Made by a program: the position numbers and the translations under genes. The notes below the pieces were generated by a model, which saw only the letters and a list, made by a program, of their open reading frames with translations, searched no databases and was not told where the DNA came from. From a virus, in IMG/VR virus record IMGVR_UViG_3300034063_000636, positions 1 to 64,000 of that record: a DNA stretch of 64,000 nucleotides, one strand, 5' to 3'. How positions within the stretch are numbered: position 1 is the first letter of the stretch; every line of letters begins with the position of its first letter. Positions 53,940 to 64,000 of the stretch are shown one piece after another.

Positions 53940-56900
53940 ATGGCAATAGATTTTAATGTAGAACCATTTTATGACGATTTTAATGCTTCGAACGGAGCCA
54001 AGGAACAGAACTATGTTCGTATCTTGTTTCGTCCTGGGTATGCTGTACAGGCTCGCGAATTAACTCAAATTCAGAGCATTATTCAGAATCAGATTAAACA
54101 ATTCGGTGACCACATTTTTAAGAATGGATCTCCAGTTTTTGGCGGTCACATCACTTATGATCTAAATGTTCCTTACATTAAATTGCAAACTGCTTATAAC
54201 GGTGCTGACGTCGACGTGGAAGATTATGAGAACGCTGTTATTCGCAACATTGCTGGTACATCAAAGGCTAGAGCAAGAGTAATTGCCACAGACGATACTC
54301 AAACTTATCCAACACTAATGGTTAAGTATTTGAGAGGCACTCGATTTATCGACAACGAAGTTATTTCGAACGCAGAATCAGGCGGTAACGAAGCAAAACT
54401 ATTGGCTTCAAGCGCAACAGGAATTGGATCAGTTGCAACGATTCAACCTGGTGTGTTCTATGTTGACGGATACTTTGTTCAGGTTCCACAGCAATCAATC
54501 GTTTTAGATCCATATGCAAGCACTCCGTCATATAAAGTCGGACTTGAAATCGTCGAAACAATTATTGACGAAAGTGCTGATGCAAATCTCCTCGATCCTG
54601 CTCAACAATCATTCAACTACCAAGCTCCTGGTGCGCATCGATACCAATTCTCTTTGGATCTTGCAAAAAGAGCATTAGATTCAGTTGATGACACGAAGTT
54701 CTTCGAACTATTGCGCATCGAAAATGGTGTCATTACAAAACAAGTCAAGTATCCAATTTACTCTGAACTTGAAAAGACACTTGCTCGTCGCACTTACGAT
54801 GAGTCTGGCGATTATACAGTAAGCCCATTTAAAGTCGCGTTTGAAGCAAATACATCAACTGCAGCTGGCAACACCGATAGTTTCATTGCTGTTGTCGCTC
54901 CAGGAAAAGCATATGTAAAAGGATTTGAGTATGAGGCAATCGGTCCACAAAGACTTACGATTCCGAAAGCACGCACAACTCAAATCTCAACAGACTATGA
55001 TCTGTCTTTAGAATATGGCAACTATTTGTATGCAAATTCAATCTTAGCATCAAATACTAGCGGATTCTTAAATTCAGCAAATCTACCAACACTCGAGTTG
55101 CACTGCGTTCCAAAGAACAGTGTCAATTTGACAAATGCTATTACTTACAACGCAACCTTTATGGGTAGCGCAAAATTAAAGCATATCACTCGAAATTCTG
55201 GAGAAGAATTTATTGTTTACTTGAGCGATATGCAATTAACATCGAACACCGTTACTGCTGGAACGACTGGTGCAAATACTCTTGCAATCAATTTCCCAGT
55301 CAACTATGCAAACATCGCTAATGCATACCAAAATGTCTCAGTAAGAATTACTTCTGGTGCATCTTCTGGCGATGTTCGTCGTATTGTTGATTACAACTCA
55401 ACAACAAGAGTTGGTGTTGTTGATGTTCCATTTACTGGATTGATTGGATCTGGTCAAACATTCTCGCTTCTATACAGCACTCGAGATATTGATTCTCTTA
55501 TTCAAGCAAATGCAGCCAAAACAGCATTCAATGTTTCAATGAATGTTTCGAATAATAGTAAAGACGTCACTGGTCGAACTATTGTTTACGACTCAAATAG
55601 AAAAACTTTATTATTCAAATTCCCAGATGTTCAAATTGAGCGTGGTTCAATTGACAATGCTGATTATGTGACAAATCGATTCTTCGAAGCGCAATCATTT
55701 AATTCAAGTGGTGTTTCAACGCTCACTTTGACTGGTAATGAAGTGCTCGATTTTGGATCTGACGGCAGCACGATTTCTTCCACACTACTTGGTCAAAATT
55801 TCATCTTTGTAATTAAAACTCTTGGGACTGCAACGGCATATAGCGGAAACTCTACTCCAGTTGCAAATGGACAAATCTTTACACCATCAAGTGTTACAAG
55901 AACGTCATCAACAGGGTTAAGTATCACCTCTGGAATCAATGGATCTTTCACTGCTGACATCTATGTCAGAGTCAAGATGGAAAATTCTGAGAACAGCGGA
56001 AACAATGTTCGTAGTAAGACAAGAGTTGGCAACGTTGCAAATACAACACTGTTGGCAACAGATAGTTACACGCCACACACTACAGTTACTGGATGCACTT
56101 CAGTTTATATTGACTCTTCAAATGGTCGTATTTGGTTCACAGATCCAGCGAGTACAATTAATAAAACTTCTGGTGGCAACACATCACTCTATATTCCAGA
56201 CGTTTATAAACTTATTAAGGTTTATACTTCTGGAAATCCTGCATACATGCCGAACACGACAAATGCAATTGATGTGACAAATAACTTTATGCTTGATACT
56301 GGACAAACAGCAGAATACTATGATCATTCTAAGTTAGTCCTCAAGCCAGGAAGAACAGCCCCAAGTGGTCAGACAGTGGTCTTTGTTGAATACTATCAAC
56401 ACGCCACAACAACTGGATACTTCAGCGTTGATTCTTATCCAGAGACACAGTATTCGAACGGTCAAATCGGTATCTTTAAATCTGGTGATGGTGTTGAATA
56501 CGTTCTTAGAGATTGTATTGATTTCCGTCCAACGAGAACACTCGGAACAACAGCCAACACATTCTTCGGCGCAAGAATTCCATTACCATATGAGCCAATG
56601 GAATTGACTTATGAATACTATCTCCCAAGAAGAGATAAGATTGTATTGACGTCGTCAAAAGAATTGAAGGTTGTCAGCGGTATTCCGAATAAAGATCCAA
56701 AGTATCCGCCAGATCAAAGTGATGCTATGACTTTGTTTACGATGGATATTCCAGCCTACACAAGTTCACATACTCATGTCACAGCAAGAGCTCTTGATCA
56801 TAAGAGATATACAATGCGTGACATTGGTAAACTTGAACAGCGAATCAGAAACGTTGAATACTATTCTGCACTTACTTTAGCTGAAACAAAGGCTAAAGAC

Positions 56901-57848
56901 TCTGCAATTCTATATGAAGACAACGCAACGCAGAAAGAGAAGTATGGCATTATTGTAGACAACTTTACAGGGTTTAAAGTTGGTGATAGCACCAGTGGAG
57001 ACTTTGTGTGCTCTATTGATGGTGGTAAATTAAAACCATATGCTAAAACAACTAATATTAATTTAGTTCCACAATCTAAGACATACACAACGCCAGATTA
57101 TCCAACCATGCCTAAGAAAGTCATGTGGACAATTCCTGGAACAGAAAAGATTATTAATGCTCAAACAGCGGCAACAAAAAACACTGCAATCATTCCACCA
57201 GTTCTTGCTGGTAAGTTTGAGGGTGATGTGCATTTGTTCCCATCAACGGATCATTACTATTCTGTGATGCTTCCACCTGTGCTCAATTCAGATACAGAAA
57301 TTGTTCCACCACCATCAATACATTATGTTCCAGAACTTATTAAATGTGATCCTCCAGTGAAATTTGTGGAACCACCACCTGTTATTGATGTTTACTCTCC
57401 AGTTCTTGATACTCGAGTTGAACCAGTATTGCCGCCAGCAGTACCAGTTCCAGCTATCGTCTTTGAGCCTGTAGCACCTCCAGCATACTTGATTCCAACT
57501 CAAACAGTGGATCCACCAACAGCATATCCACAAATTGTGATGGATCCAGTTCCATATCCAGATCCAGCAACGATTGGTCAGGTTTTGGTACTTCCACAAC
57601 CACCAGCTCCAGTGTCTCCACCAACTCCGCCACCAATCTACATTGACGGAGTGGGAACGATTTCATTAATCGATTTTGTGCCACCTCCACTAGATCCTAT
57701 TCCAGCGGATATTACGGGCTTGGCTCCAATCGTATCAACTGTTGATACCTGGTATGCTGCACCAGTTAGTACCGATCCAGAAATCTCCATCGGCGGTGGC
57801 GGAATGTTGAGAGATCTTGTTTATGAAGATAGAATAGCATTACATTAA
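53940..57848 (+). CDS. large virion structural protein, VrlC/DUF4815-like, N-terminal part with Pro-rich tail
   Basis: FN..P.YDDF, ILFRPG.AVQARELTQ.Q, APGA.R, LARRTYDESGDY, RYTMRDIG.LE.RI. Confidence 0.85.
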   Translation: MAIDFNVEPFYDDFNASNGAKEQNYVRILFRPGYAVQARELTQIQSIIQNQIKQFGDHIFKNGSPVFGGHITYDLNVPYIKLQTAYNGADVDVEDYENAVIRNIAGTSKARARVIATDDTQTYPTLMVKYLRGTRFIDNEVISNAESGGNEAKLLASSATGIGSVATIQPGVFYVDGYFVQVPQQSIVLDPYASTPSYKVGLEIVETIIDESADANLLDPAQQSFNYQAPGAHRYQFSLDLAKRALDSVDDTKFFELLRIENGVITKQVKYPIYSELEKTLARRTYDESGDYTVSPFKVAFEANTSTAAGNTDSFIAVVAPGKAYVKGFEYEAIGPQRLTIPKARTTQISTDYDLSLEYGNYLYANSILASNTSGFLNSANLPTLELHCVPKNSVNLTNAITYNATFMGSAKLKHITRNSGEEFIVYLSDMQLTSNTVTAGTTGANTLAINFPVNYANIANAYQNVSVRITSGASSGDVRRIVDYNSTTRVGVVDVPFTGLIGSGQTFSLLYSTRDIDSLIQANAAKTAFNVSMNVSNNSKDVTGRTIVYDSNRKTLLFKFPDVQIERGSIDNADYVTNRFFEAQSFNSSGVSTLTLTGNEVLDFGSDGSTISSTLLGQNFIFVIKTLGTATAYSGNSTPVANGQIFTPSSVTRTSSTGLSITSGINGSFTADIYVRVKMENSENSGNNVRSKTRVGNVANTTLLATDSYTPHTTVTGCTSVYIDSSNGRIWFTDPASTINKTSGGNTSLYIPDVYKLIKVYTSGNPAYMPNTTNAIDVTNNFMLDTGQTAEYYDHSKLVLKPGRTAPSGQTVVFVEYYQHATTTGYFSVDSYPETQYSNGQIGIFKSGDGVEYVLRDCIDFRPTRTLGTTANTFFGARIPLPYEPMELTYEYYLPRRDKIVLTSSKELKVVSGIPNKDPKYPPDQSDAMTLFTMDIPAYTSSHTHVTARALDHKRYTMRDIGKLEQRIRNVEYYSALTLAETKAKDSAILYEDNATQKEKYGIIVDNFTGFKVGDSTSGDFVCSIDGGKLKPYAKTTNINLVPQSKTYTTPDYPTMPKKVMWTIPGTEKIINAQTAATKNTAIIPPVLAGKFEGDVHLFPSTDHYYSVMLPPVLNSDTEIVPPPSIHYVPELIKCDPPVKFVEPPPVIDVYSPVLDTRVEPVLPPAVPVPAIVFEPVAPPAYLIPTQTVDPPTAYPQIVMDPVPYPDPATIGQVLVLPQPPAPVSPPTPPPIYIDGVGTISLIDFVPPPLDPIPADITGLAPIVSTVDTWYAAPVSTDPEISIGGGGMLRDLVYEDRIALH

Positions 57849-57863
57849 TTAGGGATACCAATT

Positions 57864-60713
57864 ATGGGATATATACCAAGAACAATTTTTGAGCCTTCTA
57901 TTCGACGCCAGTACGAGGACGTTGGGCTACAAAGAACACTCGGGTTCGTTAACGATGACATGCAAACGTCATTTCAAGACAATGAGTCGCAAAGAGCCCA
58001 GTATACTCGCTTCATGCGAAATCAAGAAATCACATTTGTTTCAAATGGTTTATGTCCAGACGCTAATGCAAATATTTTCTTCGATAAGGTCAACGTAAAT
58101 CGCTTTACGCAAAAGGCGAACAAACTGACTGTGACGAATATGTCAGTGCCGTTCTTTCAAGATGAAGAAATTATCAATTCAACAACTAATGCGTACGCAA
58201 AAGTTCTAACATCTTCGAATAACTTCGTTTATGTTAATGAAAACTTTATTAATGTGAATATTGCTCCATATGGATCTAACTCATTGAGTACAACCACAGG
58301 AGTTAATTTAACTGTGGTTTATGAAGATGACGTCATCTATCAAACATCATCTAACAATTATTCTGGTCCAATTACTTTTGCTGGAACTGTTGAGCGTTAC
58401 GAAAGAACAACCAATCAACATGCCTATCTTGTAATCAAGCCTATTGCTGGATCATTTAGAAAATTCTCAGCCAATTCAGTAATTTTCTTTAGAGACGATA
58501 ACTCAAAGAGAGTGAATGTTGCTGCAGTTCAAACAGCAGGCAACAATTTCCCAGCAGGATCAACAATCTATAGTAAGCGAGATATTACAAAAACAGCAAA
58601 CGTTGCTTCGCATAATCATTACTCTGGTGTAGTGTCGTATGCAAGCAGCAATAGCACAACTGAGATTCATCTATCTGGAAATGTTGCTCCTGCTGTTGGT
58701 GAGACACTTAGAATTGCCTCAGGAGCTGGTATTGCTTCTGAAAGAACAATCAATAGCGTTTCTTCAAATGGATTTATGGTCACATTGAATGCTGCAGTGT
58801 CAGTAACATCCAACTCCAAATATTCTTATGGAAAGCATGAAGTTGATGATTTTGGTGTTCTTGCTGGTTTGTTCCATATTCCAGAAGTTTCTGATGCGTA
58901 TTTCTCAGCTGGCAAGAGACTTCTTACGATCACTGACGCTGCATCTAGCGACAGTACAGATTATAAGATGAGAGCATTTAACTATTACTCTGTAGTGGGT
59001 AATATGGGTCTCATGTCTGATTATGCAAGAGTCGCATATGACACAATTGCGCCTTCGAAAGAAGTTGCACTTAATGCTAATGACATTTTAAAGAATAATA
59101 GAAAGTTCTTCCCACTTTCTCAAACATTCTTTACTCCATCATCATCAAATACTCACTCAGATGGCATCACATCAGAATTTAACGTACTGCAAATTAGTGG
59201 TATTGATTTGTTCTTTGCTGAGAAACCAACCAGTGGTGATTTACAGCTTCCTGTAAAAGTTACGATCAATGAAGTGGAAAACGATCTTCCATCTACGAAG
59301 GTTCTTGGTCAAAGCATCGTCGAAGCAAAAGATATTAATACCTCATTGATTCCAGACTCATCTCAGATTACAACAGTGACAACATTTAGATTCTCTCCAC
59401 CAGTCATCGTGAAGCCATCTAAAGAGTATGCGATCACAGTGTCAACTTCTTCACCAGACTACGCATTGTTTGTTGCAGAAGTTGGTGGAGAAATTCTAGG
59501 AACAACTCCTGCAAGAAGAGTCTCAGAGCAACCATATATTGGAGATCTCTTCAAGGCGCAAAATGCATCAAATTGGTCACCAATCCCGAACGAGGATTTG
59601 ATGTTCCGTGTTCGTTATGCAAATTGGAGTGGTGCAACATCAAATACGATCACCTTTGTTCCAGAGAATATTCTATCTAATGTTAATGTTGACTCTATTT
59701 TGATTCACAGCACAGATTATAATTTCAAGCCAACAAGCATCAATTATGCGTTTAAGACAACGAACATCGATGGATCGTTTGATGATGGTTGGAAAAATGT
59801 TAGACCAGGAAAGATCTTTGACTTCAGCGAAGATTTTGAGACATCTACAAAATCATCTAATCGCAGAAGAAGAATCATTGCAGGTAATAATGAATCGCTA
59901 CTTGTGAAGGCAGATTTGTCAACTACTGATGAAAACATTGCACCATTGGTTGACATGGAAAGAATCAGTGCGGTTGCCTTTGAATATATTATCAATGATG
60001 CTGGTATTTCTGCATCTGATATTACCTTTACAAATCTTGGTAGACATTCAAATGTGTCCAATATCACCATCACTTTCTCTGCACCTGATCGTTCAGACGG
60101 CGTGACTGCAAATGCTTATGTTGCTGCTCTTGTAAATGCAACTTCGTATGTGTCAAATACATTCCCTTCATATTCTGCCAATATTGCGATGATTGTAGTT
60201 GACGAACCAGGCTCTGGGTATTATACTGCTCCTACGATCACAATTTCTGAGGTCGGAAGTACAGATAATGCGACAGCTGTCGTTGCTGGTGAAAATGGAG
60301 CATCAGGTGGTAACTGTAAGGCGAAGTATGTAACAAAAACAATTACTCTTGCTGACGGATTCGATGCTGGCGATATTCGAGTTTACTTGGATTGCAATCG
60401 CCCTGTTGGCACAGATGTGAATGTTTATTATAAGGTCAAGTCTGGAGACGATACAGATCCATTCGAAAATAAAAAATGGCAACGTATGTCAAAAGTCAAT
60501 GATAATTTCTCGAAGGATCAAAATCAGGTCATCGAGTTAGAATATCGTGCAAGTCTTGATGTAAATAGAGTTTCTTATGTTGAGAATGGCGTGACTTATC
60601 CGCTTGGTGGGAAGTTTAAATACTATGCAATCAAGATCGTGATGACTGCTGCCAGTTCATCTGTCATCCCTTATATCGCAAACTTTAGAGCAATTGCAAC
60701 TCCTGCAGGTTGA
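57864..60713 (+). CDS. large virion structural protein, VrlC-like C-terminal part
   Basis: FMR, PLSQTF, IDLFF..KP, T.F.F..P, QPY.G.LFK.QN...W.....EDL.F, YVTK...L, Y.IKIVM, RAIA. Confidence 0.8.
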   Translation: MGYIPRTIFEPSIRRQYEDVGLQRTLGFVNDDMQTSFQDNESQRAQYTRFMRNQEITFVSNGLCPDANANIFFDKVNVNRFTQKANKLTVTNMSVPFFQDEEIINSTTNAYAKVLTSSNNFVYVNENFINVNIAPYGSNSLSTTTGVNLTVVYEDDVIYQTSSNNYSGPITFAGTVERYERTTNQHAYLVIKPIAGSFRKFSANSVIFFRDDNSKRVNVAAVQTAGNNFPAGSTIYSKRDITKTANVASHNHYSGVVSYASSNSTTEIHLSGNVAPAVGETLRIASGAGIASERTINSVSSNGFMVTLNAAVSVTSNSKYSYGKHEVDDFGVLAGLFHIPEVSDAYFSAGKRLLTITDAASSDSTDYKMRAFNYYSVVGNMGLMSDYARVAYDTIAPSKEVALNANDILKNNRKFFPLSQTFFTPSSSNTHSDGITSEFNVLQISGIDLFFAEKPTSGDLQLPVKVTINEVENDLPSTKVLGQSIVEAKDINTSLIPDSSQITTVTTFRFSPPVIVKPSKEYAITVSTSSPDYALFVAEVGGEILGTTPARRVSEQPYIGDLFKAQNASNWSPIPNEDLMFRVRYANWSGATSNTITFVPENILSNVNVDSILIHSTDYNFKPTSINYAFKTTNIDGSFDDGWKNVRPGKIFDFSEDFETSTKSSNRRRRIIAGNNESLLVKADLSTTDENIAPLVDMERISAVAFEYIINDAGISASDITFTNLGRHSNVSNITITFSAPDRSDGVTANAYVAALVNATSYVSNTFPSYSANIAMIVVDEPGSGYYTAPTITISEVGSTDNATAVVAGENGASGGNCKAKYVTKTITLADGFDAGDIRVYLDCNRPVGTDVNVYYKVKSGDDTDPFENKKWQRMSKVNDNFSKDQNQVIELEYRASLDVNRVSYVENGVTYPLGGKFKYYAIKIVMTAASSSVIPYIANFRAIATPAG

Positions 60714-60715
60714 TC

Positions 60716-60940
60716 ATGTTAGTTAAGATAAAAGACAATGATGATCTTGCAAGAGATGTGAAGTCAAGAGCAATCTTGAATGTTAATAAAAACGTTTTGC
60801 TTAAAGATCAGATGTATCAAGAGAAACTAAAGAAACAACAAGAGGTAGAGTCCTCAATAAATACTCTCAGAGAAGAAGTATCTTCGATTAAAGGCGACAT
60901 TTCTAAGATTCTAGAAATGTTGAGTTCCAGAGGTAAATAA
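60716..60940 (+). CDS. small coiled-coil protein
   Basis: L.RD..S.AI.N motif typical of genes following VrlC-like genes. Confidence 0.7.
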   Translation: MLVKIKDNDDLARDVKSRAILNVNKNVLLKDQMYQEKLKKQQEVESSINTLREEVSSIKGDISKILEMLSSRGK

Positions 60941-61983
60941 TGGCGAACACAAATATTTCACATGTCCAATTAGTGAACACCTTTAATGAGTGGCGTGCAG
61001 CAACTAATGACTTAATTGAAGATAGAAATATTCTTCGAAATGCTCATTATGTCAAAGATAATTCTTCTTTTGACATTGCAAACGGAACCATGACGATCAG
61101 CCGTTCAAGCAACGGCACAGTTCTAACAGTCGCAAACTCTGGTAACGTTGCTGTCGGTGGTTGGGTCAATGCAAATACTCTTGCAACAAACTCAGAACTC
61201 TGGTTTGGATTAAGAACTAGCGACATTGCTTCTGTCATTAAGATGACACAAGAGCCAGCAAATACTGTAGAGGCTGGAAACGCAACTTGGTATACTGCAA
61301 ATCAGAAATCAAATAATCCATATTACGGATTCACCTTCCACTCCAATGGCACAATGGTCATTGCGAATGAAGAGGAGAATGCAACTCAAGTGGTTGTCAT
61401 CGGTGACTCTGCTTACAATGTTTCTCCGACCAAAAATGGTACGATTTTTGGTGTCAGTACAATCGTTGGAACATCAGCACCAACAACAGGATATGAATCT
61501 GGTTGGCAACCCGTTCTAGACCTTCGAAGCAATTCTCTATTCATCATGCCAGTTGCTTCTGCAAATGCAGGCAATTGTTTGTATTACAACGTAACAACTG
61601 GCGAAATCACATACTCAACTGCGCCAAGCGGTAATGTTCTTGCTGGTGATCCAATTCTAATCAACACTGCAGTTGATTCTGCAAACACTGTAAGACTAAA
61701 TGTGTCAAACTGGTTCAAGTATACATTGACAGGATCATCTGGCAATCGTAATTTGACATTCACAAATCCTCCTGCTTCTGGCAATGCATATACGTTCACA
61801 ATGATTGTGATTCAAGATGGAACAGGCGGTAAAACTCCAAATTGGACAAATACAGTGTATTGGGCTGGTGGACAAATTCCTCCGCCAACAACTGACGCAA
61901 GCGCACAGGATATCTGGACATTTACCACATATGATGGTGGAACAACATATATTGGCACACTTGCTGTTAAAGACGCGAGATAA
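60940..61983 (+). CDS. tail fibre/fibre-base protein
   Basis: NTFNEWR..TN N-terminal anchor; C-terminal T....QDGTG......W...V.W.GG..P......D...F.T.DGG domain. Confidence 0.7.
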   Translation: MANTNISHVQLVNTFNEWRAATNDLIEDRNILRNAHYVKDNSSFDIANGTMTISRSSNGTVLTVANSGNVAVGGWVNANTLATNSELWFGLRTSDIASVIKMTQEPANTVEAGNATWYTANQKSNNPYYGFTFHSNGTMVIANEEENATQVVVIGDSAYNVSPTKNGTIFGVSTIVGTSAPTTGYESGWQPVLDLRSNSLFIMPVASANAGNCLYYNVTTGEITYSTAPSGNVLAGDPILINTAVDSANTVRLNVSNWFKYTLTGSSGNRNLTFTNPPASGNAYTFTMIVIQDGTGGKTPNWTNTVYWAGGQIPPPTTDASAQDIWTFTTYDGGTTYIGTLAVKDAR

Positions 61984-61985
61984 TC

Positions 61986-63935
61986 ATGCCGAATAGTTTT
62001 GGCTTAAACAAAACTTGGATTCCTGGTCCTTCCAGAGGAACAACGACATTCAATACTACTGGCAATATTAATATTGCTTATGGTAGAAATAAAACCACAG
62101 TTTCAGGTCGTGGTGGTTCTGGTTCAGGTGCTTCATACAACACTGTTCCAGGAACAACTAATCCCACTACATTTCCATACACACCAGCATCGTATAATAC
62201 GGTTCCTGGAAATTTAAATCCAACAACTTATCCGTTTACTCCAGCATCATATAATACAGTGCCTGGAACGACAAATCCTACAACGTTTCCCTTTGTTCCT
62301 GCTAGTTATAATACTGTGCCTGGAAATACAAATCCACCAAACTATCCTTACACACCAGATAGTTACAACACTGTTCCTGGAACAACCAATCCAACAGTGT
62401 ATCCATATACTCCAGAAAGTTATAACACTGTTCCAGGAAATAGTAATCCGCCAAATTATCCATTTACTCCTGAATCATACAATACAGTGCCAGGAAACTT
62501 AAATCCAACCAATTATCCATACACACCAGCTTCGTACAATACAGTTCCTGGAAACACTAATCCAACTAACTACCCATTCGTTCCTGCATCATATAATACT
62601 GTTCCTGGTAATTTGAATCCAACAGTGTATCCATATACACCAGAGAGTTACAACACTGTTCCTGGAAATACAAATCCAACAAACTATCCATATACACCAG
62701 CTTCCTATAATACTGTTCCTGGAAATACTAATCCAACTAACTATCCATATACCCCAGAAAGTTATAACACAGTTCCTGGAAATACAAATCCAACGAATTA
62801 TCCGTACACTCCAGAGAGTTATAACACTGTAACAAACTATCCATATACTCCAGGCTCATATAACGCACCAACAGGTGTTAGTTGGAATTTGACTGCAATC
62901 GGACCAAGTTACGGTGGTGTTGCAACAATAATTGGTGACGGATTTGATACAAATTGCCCATCACCATATAGCACACCAACTCCGTTTGGTCCAGACGAAT
63001 TCACATATGAATGTTTCCCAGCTGGAAATACTGAAAATCCTGCGAGTTATAACACAGTTACCAATTATCCATATACACCTGCGTCGTATAATACAGTTCC
63101 AGGAAATGTAAATCCAACCAATTATCCGTTTACCCCTGCATCGTACAATACAGTCCCAGGAAATTTAAATCCAACGAACTATCCTTATGTTCCTGCAAGT
63201 TATAACACTGTTCCTGGCAATTTAAATCCAACCAATTATCCATACACACCAGCATCGTATAATACAGTTCCTGGAAACTTAAATCCAACGAACTATCCTT
63301 ATGTTCCTGCAAGTTATAACACTGTTCCAGGAAATGTAAATCCGACAGTGTATCCATATACTCCAGAAAGTTATAATACAGTTCCTGGTAACTTGAATCC
63401 GACTAATTATCCGTTTACTCCTGCATCGTATAATACGGTTCCTGGTAACAGCAATCCACCAACTTATCCATACACACCAGCGTCTTACAATACTGTTCCT
63501 GGGACAACAAATCCAACCAATTATCCGTATACACCAGCATCGTATAACACAGTATCAGGAAACTTAAATCCAACCAATTATCCATTCGTTCCTGCAAGTT
63601 ATAACACGGTTCCAGGAACGACAAATCCACCGTCGTATCCATTCGTGCCTGCAAGTTATAATACTGTGCCAGGAACAACAAATCCAACAGTGTATCCATT
63701 CGTCCCTGCAAGTTATAATACTGTGCCAGGAACAACAAATCCAACAGTGTATCCATTTACTCCAGGAGTTCCTGGAACACCAACAACTGTTCTTGGTGTA
63801 TACTTCCCAGGCGGTGTTGCTGGCGTTGCTCCATATGTTCCAGAAACTGTAGTGAATTATTGGGACTATCCAGATAATGCGACCTATCCAGTCACTGTTC
63901 CAACAGGTGCATACATAGTAGTGAAGATTGAATAA
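61986..63935 (+). CDS. repeat-rich fibre/adhesin protein
   Basis: 649 aa with 19-aa repeats flanking a unique Cys-pair centre. Confidence 0.75.
   Translation: MPNSFGLNKTWIPGPSRGTTTFNTTGNINIAYGRNKTTVSGRGGSGSGASYNTVPGTTNPTTFPYTPASYNTVPGNLNPTTYPFTPASYNTVPGTTNPTTFPFVPASYNTVPGNTNPPNYPYTPDSYNTVPGTTNPTVYPYTPESYNTVPGNSNPPNYPFTPESYNTVPGNLNPTNYPYTPASYNTVPGNTNPTNYPFVPASYNTVPGNLNPTVYPYTPESYNTVPGNTNPTNYPYTPASYNTVPGNTNPTNYPYTPESYNTVPGNTNPTNYPYTPESYNTVTNYPYTPGSYNAPTGVSWNLTAIGPSYGGVATIIGDGFDTNCPSPYSTPTPFGPDEFTYECFPAGNTENPASYNTVTNYPYTPASYNTVPGNVNPTNYPFTPASYNTVPGNLNPTNYPYVPASYNTVPGNLNPTNYPYTPASYNTVPGNLNPTNYPYVPASYNTVPGNVNPTVYPYTPESYNTVPGNLNPTNYPFTPASYNTVPGNSNPPTYPYTPASYNTVPGTTNPTNYPYTPASYNTVSGNLNPTNYPFVPASYNTVPGTTNPPSYPFVPASYNTVPGTTNPTVYPFVPASYNTVPGTTNPTVYPFTPGVPGTPTTVLGVYFPGGVAGVAPYVPETVVNYWDYPDNATYPVTVPTGAYIVVKIE
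62133..63767 (+). repeat. coding tandem repeat, 57-nt unit (SYNTVPGNxNPTNYPYTPA), 24 full and 2 short copies
   Basis: direct reading of the translation; synonymous variation between units. Confidence 0.95.
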
Positions 63936-63937
63936 AC

Positions 63938-63966
63938 TTGAAATTTTTTATAGATTGTAGTATAAT
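63938..63966 (+). promoter_or_regulatory. sigma70-type promoter for the next (truncated) gene
   Basis: TTGAAA-17-TATAAT, then SD GGAG and ATG near 63989. Confidence 0.6.
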
Positions 63967-64000
63967 GATTTAAATCTTGGAGTTATATTATGCCATCATT

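What the first reader, a model, noticed from the sequence alone, without database searches (positions are those of the whole stretch)
62133..63767. Mirror-symmetric repeat fibre: 12 full + 1 short / tip / 1 short + 12 full
Both arms have exactly 12 full 19-aa units plus one 13-aa unit lacking the same six residues next to the 63-aa unique centre (62856-63044, two Cys). Variants also mirror: the only GNSNPP units are 6th from each end, GTTN units sit at positions 1, 3 and 5 from both ends, and GNLN at 7 and 9 from both ends. Inference: the chain runs out and back as an in-register antiparallel stalk presenting a small disulfide-closed tip, with the N- and C-termini forming the base. Arm lengths would then have to co-evolve, an unusual constraint for a tandem repeat.
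Basis: partly seen in the sequence, partly recalled or inferred. Interest (0 to 1): 0.72.

Follow-up and report, generated by a model that had tools for sequence, protein, structure and literature searches.

The report
Fold-back repeat fibre of lake phages
An uncultured freshwater T4-like phage encodes a tail-module protein whose two ends fold into one small base, while the middle most likely runs out to a swappable tip and back along two repeat arms kept equal in length across more than 100 relatives, a fibre family that appears undescribed.

Summary
ORF 61986-63935 (649 aa) reads: N-terminal piece, 12 x 19-aa units, one 13-aa unit, a 63-aa unique centre with two Cys, one 13-aa unit, 12 x 19-aa units, C-terminal piece.

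The claimed mirroring of unit variants is weak (permutation P about 0.07; absent in the closest homologue).

The main inference is well supported:
- In 129 full-length relatives the arms range from about 13 to 350 aa and stay matched (median asymmetry 3%, r = 0.94).
- Close relatives differ by paired changes, for example 12/12 against 11/11.
- Two AlphaFold2 models place the N- and C-terminal pieces in one confident beta-sandwich.

Near-identical proteins carry unrelated tips, as expected of a specificity cassette. The arms themselves were not modelled (pLDDT about 30), so lateral pairing, register, oligomeric state and the disulfide remain inferences.

The closest known design is the T4 gp37 needle, a stem-and-tip insertion in a collar domain with 50/50-residue arms. 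No sequence or clear fold relationship was found.

In 52 of 53 related loci the gene is followed directly by a prolyl-hydroxylase-like oxygenase gene, usually with a GlcNAc-transferase-family gene. This suggests the Pro/Thr-rich arms are modified.

This scan has noted other fold-back hairpin fibres, with different repeats, in other uncultured T4-like phages.

The parts
61986..63935 (+). Whole gene: 649-aa fold-back fibre protein (stop codon included)
   Evidence: Single ORF. No Pfam, PHROG or PDB sequence match. More than 100 full-length relatives in metagenomes and viral contigs.
61986..62123 (+). N-terminal half of the split base domain (residues 1-46)
   Evidence: Conserved in 112 proteins that also carry the C-terminal half. 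pLDDT 82-91 for residues 21-50, with three beta-strands. Aligned together with the C-terminal half as one beta-sandwich.
62133..62816 (+). Left (outgoing) arm: 12 units of 19 aa, consensus SYNTVPGNxNPTNYPYTPA
   Evidence: Units are only about 73% identical in DNA. AlphaFold2 pLDDT about 30.
62817..62855 (+). Left 13-aa short unit (lacks PGNxNP), next to the tip
   Evidence: Also present in homologue L002.
62856..63044 (+). Tip domain, 63 aa, with the only two Cys (C324, C343)
   Evidence: pLDDT 87-90 for residues 293-348, with three strands. The CPxP ... YxCxPxGN frame recurs in many relatives. The tip is exchanged between otherwise identical proteins.
63045..63083 (+). Right 13-aa short unit (lacks the same six residues), next to the tip
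63084..63767 (+). Right (returning) arm: 12 units of 19 aa
63768..63932 (+). C-terminal half of the split base domain (residues 595-649; profile match from residue 597)
   Evidence: pLDDT 87-93, with five strands. Part of the same beta-sandwich as the N-terminal half.
60940..61983 (+). Upstream neighbour: 347-aa protein with a tail-fibre-type C-terminal domain. Conserved next to the family gene in related phages.
   Evidence: phrog_9017 and phrog_7760 'tail fiber protein'. Synteny.
63990..64000 (+). First bases of the downstream 2OG-Fe(II) oxygenase gene (runs to base 64580 of the genome, beyond the window). It is followed by two DUF6065-like genes and a GlcNAc-transferase-family gene.
   Evidence: L007 ORFs. 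PF13640 at 1.4e-18 and PF11397 at 8e-32. Best solved relatives are PKHD-type and prolyl hydroxylases. Linked to the family gene in 52 of 53 loci.

Best explanation
The gene encodes a virion fibre or adhesin of an uncultured freshwater T4-like myovirus, built as a fold-back.

The first ~46 and last ~54 residues fold together into one small eight-stranded beta-sandwich, the base. Everything between them is an insertion. It leaves the base, runs out along 12 + 1 repeat units, forms a small two-Cys tip domain, and returns along 1 + 12 units to the base.

Both arms span the same base-to-tip distance and most probably lie side by side. Selection therefore keeps them equal: any gain or loss in one arm must be matched in the other.

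The tip is the variable, exchangeable end and most likely recognises the host surface. The stalk sets how far the tip is held out.

The Pro/Thr/Asn/Tyr-rich arms are probably hydroxylated and/or glycosylated by the enzymes encoded directly downstream. This would stiffen them into an extended rod.

Shown: the repeat anatomy, the family-wide arm parity, paired changes between close relatives, the single base fold in models, tip swapping, and the gene linkage.

Inferred: lateral pairing and its register, the disulfide, the oligomeric state, the receptor-binding role, and the modification.
For: - Anatomy.
- Tail-module position: downstream of gp5/gp6/gp7/gp8-like baseplate genes and next to a tail-fibre-type protein. 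A fibre-assembly-type small protein and a giant fibre gene lie downstream.
- Split base: 112 proteins of 133-659 aa carry both terminal pieces with inserts of 34 to about 550 aa. Both pieces are confident in two AlphaFold2 models. Structural neighbours align 75-100 residues running from the N piece to the C piece.
- Arm parity: median asymmetry 0.03, 106 of 129 below 0.1 (10% expected for random tip placement), r = 0.94, median |L-R| 6 aa. In 35 further proteins from viral contigs the maximum asymmetry is 0.074, with arms of 94-348 aa.
- Paired changes: Q has 12/12 units and L002 has 11/11, with GNSNPP still 6th from each end. In 25 disjoint close pairs dL against dR gives r = 0.68, P = 1.6e-4; examples are +23/+23, -25/-24 and +48/+49.
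- Matched arms of different types: some members have a left arm of 11-aa FNIVPGN-type units and a right arm of 10-aa FNAPTNGPQN-type units, still matched in length and count. Common ancestry of the two arms cannot explain this.
- Both short units, lacking the same six residues, sit at the same level next to the tip.
- Tip cassettes: base and arms 95-100% identical, tip 10-40% identical.
- The DNA units are about 73% identical, so this is an old, maintained array and not a recent expansion.
- Linkage to the oxygenase and glycosyltransferase genes.
Against: - AlphaFold2 gives the arms no confident structure in either model (pLDDT about 30-45), so pairing of the arms is not seen directly.
- The unit-variant mirror is not significant.
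- Motif positions in the two arms of other members are mirrored only by zone, not exactly.
- Some relatives are truly asymmetric or have two tips (P0021, P0015/P0018, P0047/48/50/72/78).
- No virion, proteomic or host data exist. No cultured phage carries the gene.
- At 21% proline, a regular hydrogen-bonded beta-ribbon is unlikely, so the physical nature of the stalk is open.
Confidence: 0.72

Rival explanations
1. Tethered loop. The chain does go out and back, but the arms do not touch. Each arm is an independent, extended (polyproline-II-like, perhaps glycosylated) spacer joining base and tip. Parity reflects only that both must span the same distance.
For: The arms are 21% Pro with no predicted secondary structure. 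A hydroxylase and a glycosyltransferase are encoded next door, as for self-supporting extended glycoprotein rods. Parity is close but not always exact: left exceeds right by about 6% in the L014 group.
Against: Parity is often exact to the residue (248/248, 258/258, 217/217, 243/243), which is tighter than slack tethers would need. The same six residues are missing from both units at the same level. Left-type and right-type units are kept as distinct, matched sets, which suggests a specific partner surface.
Confidence: 0.15
2. Compact stack rather than long rod. Each repeat unit is one rung (a beta-arch or short polyproline-type helix) stacked about 0.5 nm on the next. The left arm forms one layer and the right arm the facing layer. 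The stalk of this protein would then be only about 6 nm long, and parity would be in unit number rather than in residues.
For: Every position of the 19-aa unit is strictly conserved, and an aromatic-Asn pair recurs once per unit in every subfamily, as in Asn and aromatic ladders. Where the units differ in length (10 against 11 aa), the unit counts match (6/6, 6/6, 3/3) while the lengths differ by about 10%.
Against: AlphaFold2 usually models solenoids confidently and did not do so here. Four prolines per 19 residues fit poorly in beta rungs. In the L014 group the unit counts are equal only to within 1-2, so count parity is no better than length parity.
Confidence: 0.1
3. No structural meaning. 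Equal arms are chance, or an assembly artefact of a repetitive gene.
For: Short-read contigs break inside the repeats, so the copy number is not independently bridged.
Against: Units differ by about 27% in DNA, and all pieces recur at 100% identity in four other runs without alternative joints. The same rule holds in 129 proteins from many samples and in paired contrasts.
Confidence: 0.02

Closest known systems
Needle (D10 collar + D11 stem/tip) of the phage T4 long-tail-fibre protein gp37
   Same: An elongated stem-and-tip is an insertion in a base domain made from the flanking N- and C-side segments. The stem is formed by two segments of equal length (residues 882-931 and 960-1009), with the receptor-binding tip between them (PMC6957217). 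Both are distal parts of T4-type tail fibres.
   Different: - No sequence match, and gp37 is not among the listed structural neighbours of the base.
- No His at all, so none of the HxH iron sites that hold the gp37 needle together.
- The arms here are tandem repeats of 7-19 aa, up to about 350 aa per arm against 50, and vary in copy number between relatives.
- The whole protein is just this module.
- A hydroxylase/glycosyltransferase gene set is linked to it.
Hydroxyproline-rich glycoprotein rods (plant extensins) and the Skp1 prolyl-hydroxylase / GlcNAc-transferase pathway; chlorovirus PBCV-1 prolyl 4-hydroxylase
   Same: A Pro-rich repeat with Tyr-x-Tyr motifs lies next to a P4H-type 2OG oxygenase (PF13640; PDB neighbours include prolyl hydroxylases 4iw3 and 5c5t) and a PF11397 GlcNAc-transferase-family enzyme. 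That extended glycosylated polyproline-II rods are the outcome in extensins is from my own knowledge.
   Different: There are no Ser-Pro(3-5) blocks. No modification has been shown. The target residue (Pro, Thr/Ser or Asn) is unknown. The host is bacterial and the enzymes are phage-encoded.
Other fold-back hairpin fibres noted by this scan in uncultured T4-like phages (e1-5703815, e1-6095843 and others)
   Same: Two equal arms around a variable tip, paired length changes in relatives, and the same comparison to the gp37 needle (AI notes, not checked here).
   Different: Those are four-residue Tyr/Gly repeats in much larger proteins. Here the units are 7-19 aa and Pro/Asn/Thr/Tyr-rich, with a defined split beta-sandwich base and a linked modification operon. 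Homology between the two groups was not tested.
TNF/C1q-type and other viral jelly-roll beta-sandwiches (for the base domain only)
   Same: An eight-stranded sandwich of about 100 residues. Neighbours include 4-1BBL, Cbln1, the collagen VIII NC1 domain, and phage tail-tip and penton proteins.
   Different: All Z values are 5.4 or below, within the background for this search. Foldseek finds nothing significant. No oligomeric state is established.

Membership tests
T4 gp37-type needle (collar with stem/tip insertion) | Base domain formed by segments flanking an inserted stem and tip | tested here: met
   The N (1-46) and C (597-649) pieces are confident and align as one beta-sandwich in two models. 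Inserts of 34 to about 550 aa lie between them across the family.
T4 gp37-type needle (collar with stem/tip insertion) | Outgoing and returning stem segments of equal length | tested here: met
   248/248 aa here. Median asymmetry 0.03 over 129 relatives.
T4 gp37-type needle (collar with stem/tip insertion) | HxH motifs coordinating iron along the stem | tested here: not met
   The protein has no histidine.
T4 gp37-type needle (collar with stem/tip insertion) | Sequence or fold homology of the base to the gp37/gp12 collar | tested here: inconclusive
   No PDB sequence hit at E <= 1. The structural neighbours listed are generic sandwiches with Z <= 5.4.
T4 gp37-type needle (collar with stem/tip insertion) | Homotrimer with intertwined chains | not testable with these tools
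   The only oligomer job gave no verdict (see Tried and rejected).
Collagen-like phage fibre | Runs of Gly-X-Y triplets | tested here: not met
   No run of four or more G-x-x triplets.
Polyglycine-II sandwich adhesins (phage S16 gp38 type) | Glycine-rich motifs forming PGII helices | tested here: not met
   The arms of this protein are 5.4% Gly. Some distant family members do have Gly-rich units. No sequence match to solved structures.
Hydroxyproline-rich glycoproteins (extensin type) | Ser-Pro(3-5) blocks; Hyp O-glycosylation; Tyr cross-link motifs | tested here: inconclusive
   There are no SPPP blocks. YPY/YPF motifs occur once per unit. P4H-like and GlcNAc-transferase-family genes are adjacent. 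The modification itself cannot be tested here.

The most novel reading that the evidence does not exclude
A length-tunable fold-back phage fibre whose two matched repeat arms are substrates of a dedicated phage-encoded prolyl-hydroxylase-like oxygenase and a GlcNAc-transferase-family enzyme. This would be a hydroxylated and glycosylated, extensin-like stalk on a bacteriophage virion. It would carry an exchangeable receptor-binding tip, and its length would evolve by obligatorily paired repeat gains and losses.
Probability: 0.35. Interest if true: 0.85.

Novelty: new variant of a known kind. Interest (0 to 1): 0.72.

Why it matters
Tandem repeats normally drift in copy number independently. Here two arrays in one protein are held equal over a 25-fold length range. 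That is a clear natural example of a geometric constraint acting on repeat evolution, and it suggests a simple way to build fibres of adjustable reach.

The family is common in lake T4-like phages: 20 lake metagenome runs hold this very gene, and dozens of viral contigs hold relatives. It has no Pfam, PHROG or PDB counterpart.

It combines three features useful for understanding and engineering host recognition: a conserved anchoring base, a stalk of tunable length and a cassette-like tip.

Its invariant linkage to a P4H-type oxygenase and a Skp1-type GlcNAc-transferase family member offers a concrete, testable substrate for the many unexplained 2OG-Fe(II) oxygenase genes of aquatic phages.

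Tried and rejected
- Homotrimer prediction of the short relative P0033 (3 copies, with alignment A2): score 0.00, no verdict. This is neither support nor evidence against.
- AlphaFold2 of the full protein and of the 276-aa relative P0035: the arms were not modelled. In P0035 the tip was not modelled either.
- Foldseek against the PDB: nothing at E <= 0.001.
- VIA-align against PDB representatives: only generic beta-sandwich neighbours, Z <= 5.4.
- Pfam, PHROGs, PDB sequence search and ESM Atlas for the protein: no hit.
- tblastn of the protein and of P0033 against 50,697 phage genomes: no match. The low-complexity filter may hide the repeats.
- Scan of 185,579 prokaryote genomes: no relative.
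Neighbourhoods were taken from IMG/VR loci instead.
- Exact mirroring of a QPExSRP motif between arms in the P0005 group: only zone-level agreement.
- Unit-count parity against residue parity could not be separated.
- The automatic tip caller mis-split some tips (for example P0014, P0052, P0105, P0120 and P0162, which are symmetric by eye). The asymmetry figures are therefore conservative.
- Literature searches for a phage prolyl hydroxylase acting on a fibre found nothing specific.
- The context of the DUF6065-like homologue in halovirus HF1 was uninformative.

Full report
**What is there.** The window is the first 64 kb of a 108-kb IMG/VR viral contig. Genes at 40-57 kb match T4-type baseplate proteins: tube cap, gp5-like hub, and gp6-, gp7- and gp8-like wedge proteins. 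About 30% identity to cyanophage and pelagiphage proteins marks it as a distant T4-like myovirus. Twenty lake-water metagenome runs hold the gene studied here.

The finding lies in one ORF, 61986-63935 (+), 649 aa.
- a 49-residue N-terminal piece;
- 12 units of 19 aa;
- one 13-aa unit lacking PGNxNP;
- a 63-aa unique centre with the only two cysteines;
- one 13-aa unit lacking the same six residues;
- 12 units of 19 aa;
- a C-terminal piece of about 55 residues.

The arms are 21% Pro, 19% Thr, 17% Asn and 14% Tyr. They contain no His, no Gly-X-Y runs and no N-x-S/T sequons.

**Is the symmetry more than chance?** The fine mirroring of unit variants is not convincing. The mirror register scores 190 identities against 183.6 +/- 3.9 for shuffled orders (P about 0.07). 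In the closest homologue the mirror register is at chance, while the direct register scores higher.

The DNA units are only about 73% identical to each other, within and between arms. The arrays are therefore old and not the product of a recent expansion or of conversion between arms.

The strong evidence comes from relatives.
- The 81%-identical protein of another contig (L002) has 11 + 1 / tip / 1 + 11 units. GNSNPP is again sixth from each end, so one unit has gone from the tip-proximal part of each arm.
- Its first five left units are identical in DNA to those of the window protein. The rest has diverged, yet parity is kept.
- More distant relatives use other units (mixed 7- and 13-aa units, or 14-aa units) and still have arms of 211/215 and 207/211 residues.

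**The family.** A profile search of 1.84 billion representatives gave 145 hits. Counting all proteins fetched so far, 112 carry both the N-terminal 46 residues and the C-terminal 54 residues. Total lengths run from 133 to 659 aa. The family is thus a conserved pair of terminal pieces with an insert of 34 to about 550 residues.

The short members are telling. They have three plus three, or six plus six, 10-11-aa units around a bare turn, or short arms around a Cys-pair domain.

I delimited the non-repetitive core automatically and measured what lies on each side of it. Over 94 proteins the median |L-R|/(L+R) is 0.043. Fifty-seven viral loci gave 35 further distinct proteins with arms of 94-348 aa, median asymmetry 0.012 and maximum 0.074. 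Combined figures:
- n = 129;
- median asymmetry 0.03;
- 106 of 129 below 0.1, against 10% expected if the core sat anywhere;
- r(L,R) = 0.94;
- median difference six residues.

Several apparent outliers are caller errors and are symmetric by eye. To limit the effect of shared ancestry I took 25 disjoint pairs of close relatives. The change in the left arm predicts the change in the right arm (r = 0.68, P = 1.6e-4). Clean cases are +23/+23, -20/-19, -25/-24 and +48/+49.

In one subgroup the two arms are built from different units: 11-aa FNIVPGN-type on the left and 10-aa FNAPTNGPQN-type on the right. They are still matched in length and in count. Common descent of the two arms cannot explain this parity. 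A structural constraint can.

True exceptions exist. P0021 has arms of about 120 against 58 aa, P0015 and P0018 have two tips, and there is a multi-domain subgroup. Tipless forms (P0033, P0040) and two-tip forms are what unequal crossing-over between two directly repeated arms would produce. That origin is my inference.

**The base and the tip.** AlphaFold2 on the whole protein (25-row alignment) gives the following:
- pLDDT 82-91 for residues 21-50;
- 87-93 for most of residues 591-649 (one ten-residue block at 65);
- 87-90 for residues 301-330, and 71-74 in the flanking blocks;
- about 30 for the arms.

A second model, of the 276-aa relative P0035, gives the two terminal pieces pLDDT about 95. 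It shows a small bridge between the first residues of the left arm and the last residues of the right arm.

In both models the structural neighbours align 75-100 residues running from the N piece to the C piece. The termini are therefore modelled as one eight-stranded beta-sandwich. The neighbours (TNF/C1q-type domains, nucleoplasmin, and phage tail-tip and penton proteins) all have Z <= 5.4, so no family can be named. Foldseek finds nothing.

The tip behaves as a cassette. P0005 against P0009/P0010, and P0014 against P0017, are 95-100% identical in base and arms but 10-40% identical in the tip. This is the usual signature of a host-specificity determinant. The receptor-binding role is inferred.

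**What the arms are physically.** This remains open. Neither model shows a structure for them, and the one oligomer job gave no verdict.
- If the chain is extended, 241 residues per arm would give a stalk of roughly 75 nm.
- If each unit is a stacked rung, the stalk would be only about 6 nm.

Both figures are my estimates, from about 0.31-0.34 nm per residue and about 0.48 nm per rung. Three observations favour lateral, level-by-level contact over two independent tethers: exact parity in many members, the matched deletion of six residues in both tip-proximal units, and the matched sets of different left and right units. None of them proves it.

**Context.** Directly downstream, starting at base 63990, lie the following:
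- a 196-aa 2OG-Fe(II) oxygenase (PF13640, E = 1.4e-18), whose best solved relatives are PKHD-type hydroxylases and prolyl hydroxylases;
- two DUF6065-like paralogues;
- a 315-aa member of the PF11397 GlcNAc-transferase family, the family of the Skp1 hydroxyproline GlcNAc-transferase;
- a small protein of a fibre-assembly PHROG;
- a giant fibre gene.

In 52 of 53 related loci with enough downstream sequence, the oxygenase gene starts 22-81 nt after the family gene. Forty-two loci show the full oxygenase, DUF, DUF, transferase set. Most of the others either end before the transferase position or carry an oxygenase-transferase pair after an upstream paralogue. Some phages carry two tandem paralogues of different length, each with equal arms.

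This linkage makes the arms the obvious candidate substrate. The lead came from an earlier first-stage note on this genome. I verified the domains and the synteny, not the chemistry.

**Comparison with what is known.** The closest described design is the T4 gp37 needle. Domain D11 is an insertion in collar domain D10, and its stem is formed by residues 882-931 and 960-1009, that is 50 + 50 residues, around the tip (PMC6957217).

The present family shares that logic. It fails the defining iron-binding HxH feature, shows no detectable homology, and differs in having repeat arms of variable copy number and a linked modification operon. I therefore file it as a new variant of the fold-back fibre design, not as a member of the gp37 family.

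No cultured phage and no prokaryote genome searched carries it. This scan has reported fold-back hairpin fibres with four-residue Tyr/Gly repeats in other uncultured T4-like phages. Those notes agree in kind but concern other proteins, and I did not check them.

**Assembly.** Logan contigs of four other lake runs cover 61800-64000 at 100% identity with no alternative joints. One contig spans the inner left units, both short units, the tip and the first right units. Contigs break within the repeats, so 12 + 12 is not independently bridged.

**Verdict.** The out-and-back reading, with termini forming the base and arms that co-evolve, is supported. The pairing geometry, disulfide, oligomer, receptor role and modification remain to be shown.

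Noticed in passing
window 63990-64000 and beyond (L007:191-3262 = genome 63990-67061): An operon of a 2OG-Fe(II) oxygenase (PF13640, prolyl-hydroxylase-like), two DUF6065-like paralogues and a PF11397 GlcNAc-transferase-family gene directly follows the fibre gene. The oxygenase follows the family gene in 52 of 53 related viral loci.
   Followed up: partly
P0005 vs P0009/P0010; P0014 vs P0017 (metagenome proteins): Proteins with 95-100% identical base and arms carry unrelated tip domains, with and without the Cys pair. The tip is exchanged as a cassette.
   Followed up: yes
P0033, P0040 (tipless); P0015, P0018, P0072 (two tips): Family members without a tip or with two tips look like the reciprocal products of unequal crossing-over between the two directly repeated arms.
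   Followed up: partly
L025, L031, L034, L035, L054 and others: Several related phages carry two tandem paralogues of the fibre gene with different lengths (for example 598 and 669 aa). Each paralogue has equal arms.
   Followed up: partly
L014:2218-4266, L060:5980-7164: In this subgroup the outgoing arm is made of 11-aa FNIVPGN-type units and the returning arm of 10-aa FNAPTNGPQN-type units, joined by a bare turn with no tip domain.
   Followed up: partly
L007:775-1503 (genome 64574-65302): The DUF6065-like protein has 30-36% identical homologues in haloarchaeal tailed viruses (HF1, HF2, HRTV, HCTV) and in a few cyanophages. In HF1 it lies between a ribonucleotide reductase gene and virion genes.
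   Followed up: partly
window 53940-60713: Two large proteins (1302 and 949 aa) together match one 2056-position PHROG of unknown function (phrog_358). They look like a split or duplicated giant structural protein between gp8 and the fibre genes.
   Followed up: no
L007:3620-10000 (genome 67419 onward): A fibre-module ORF of more than 2127 aa starts just after a small protein of an 'L-shaped tail fiber assembly' PHROG. It was not analysed here.
   Followed up: no
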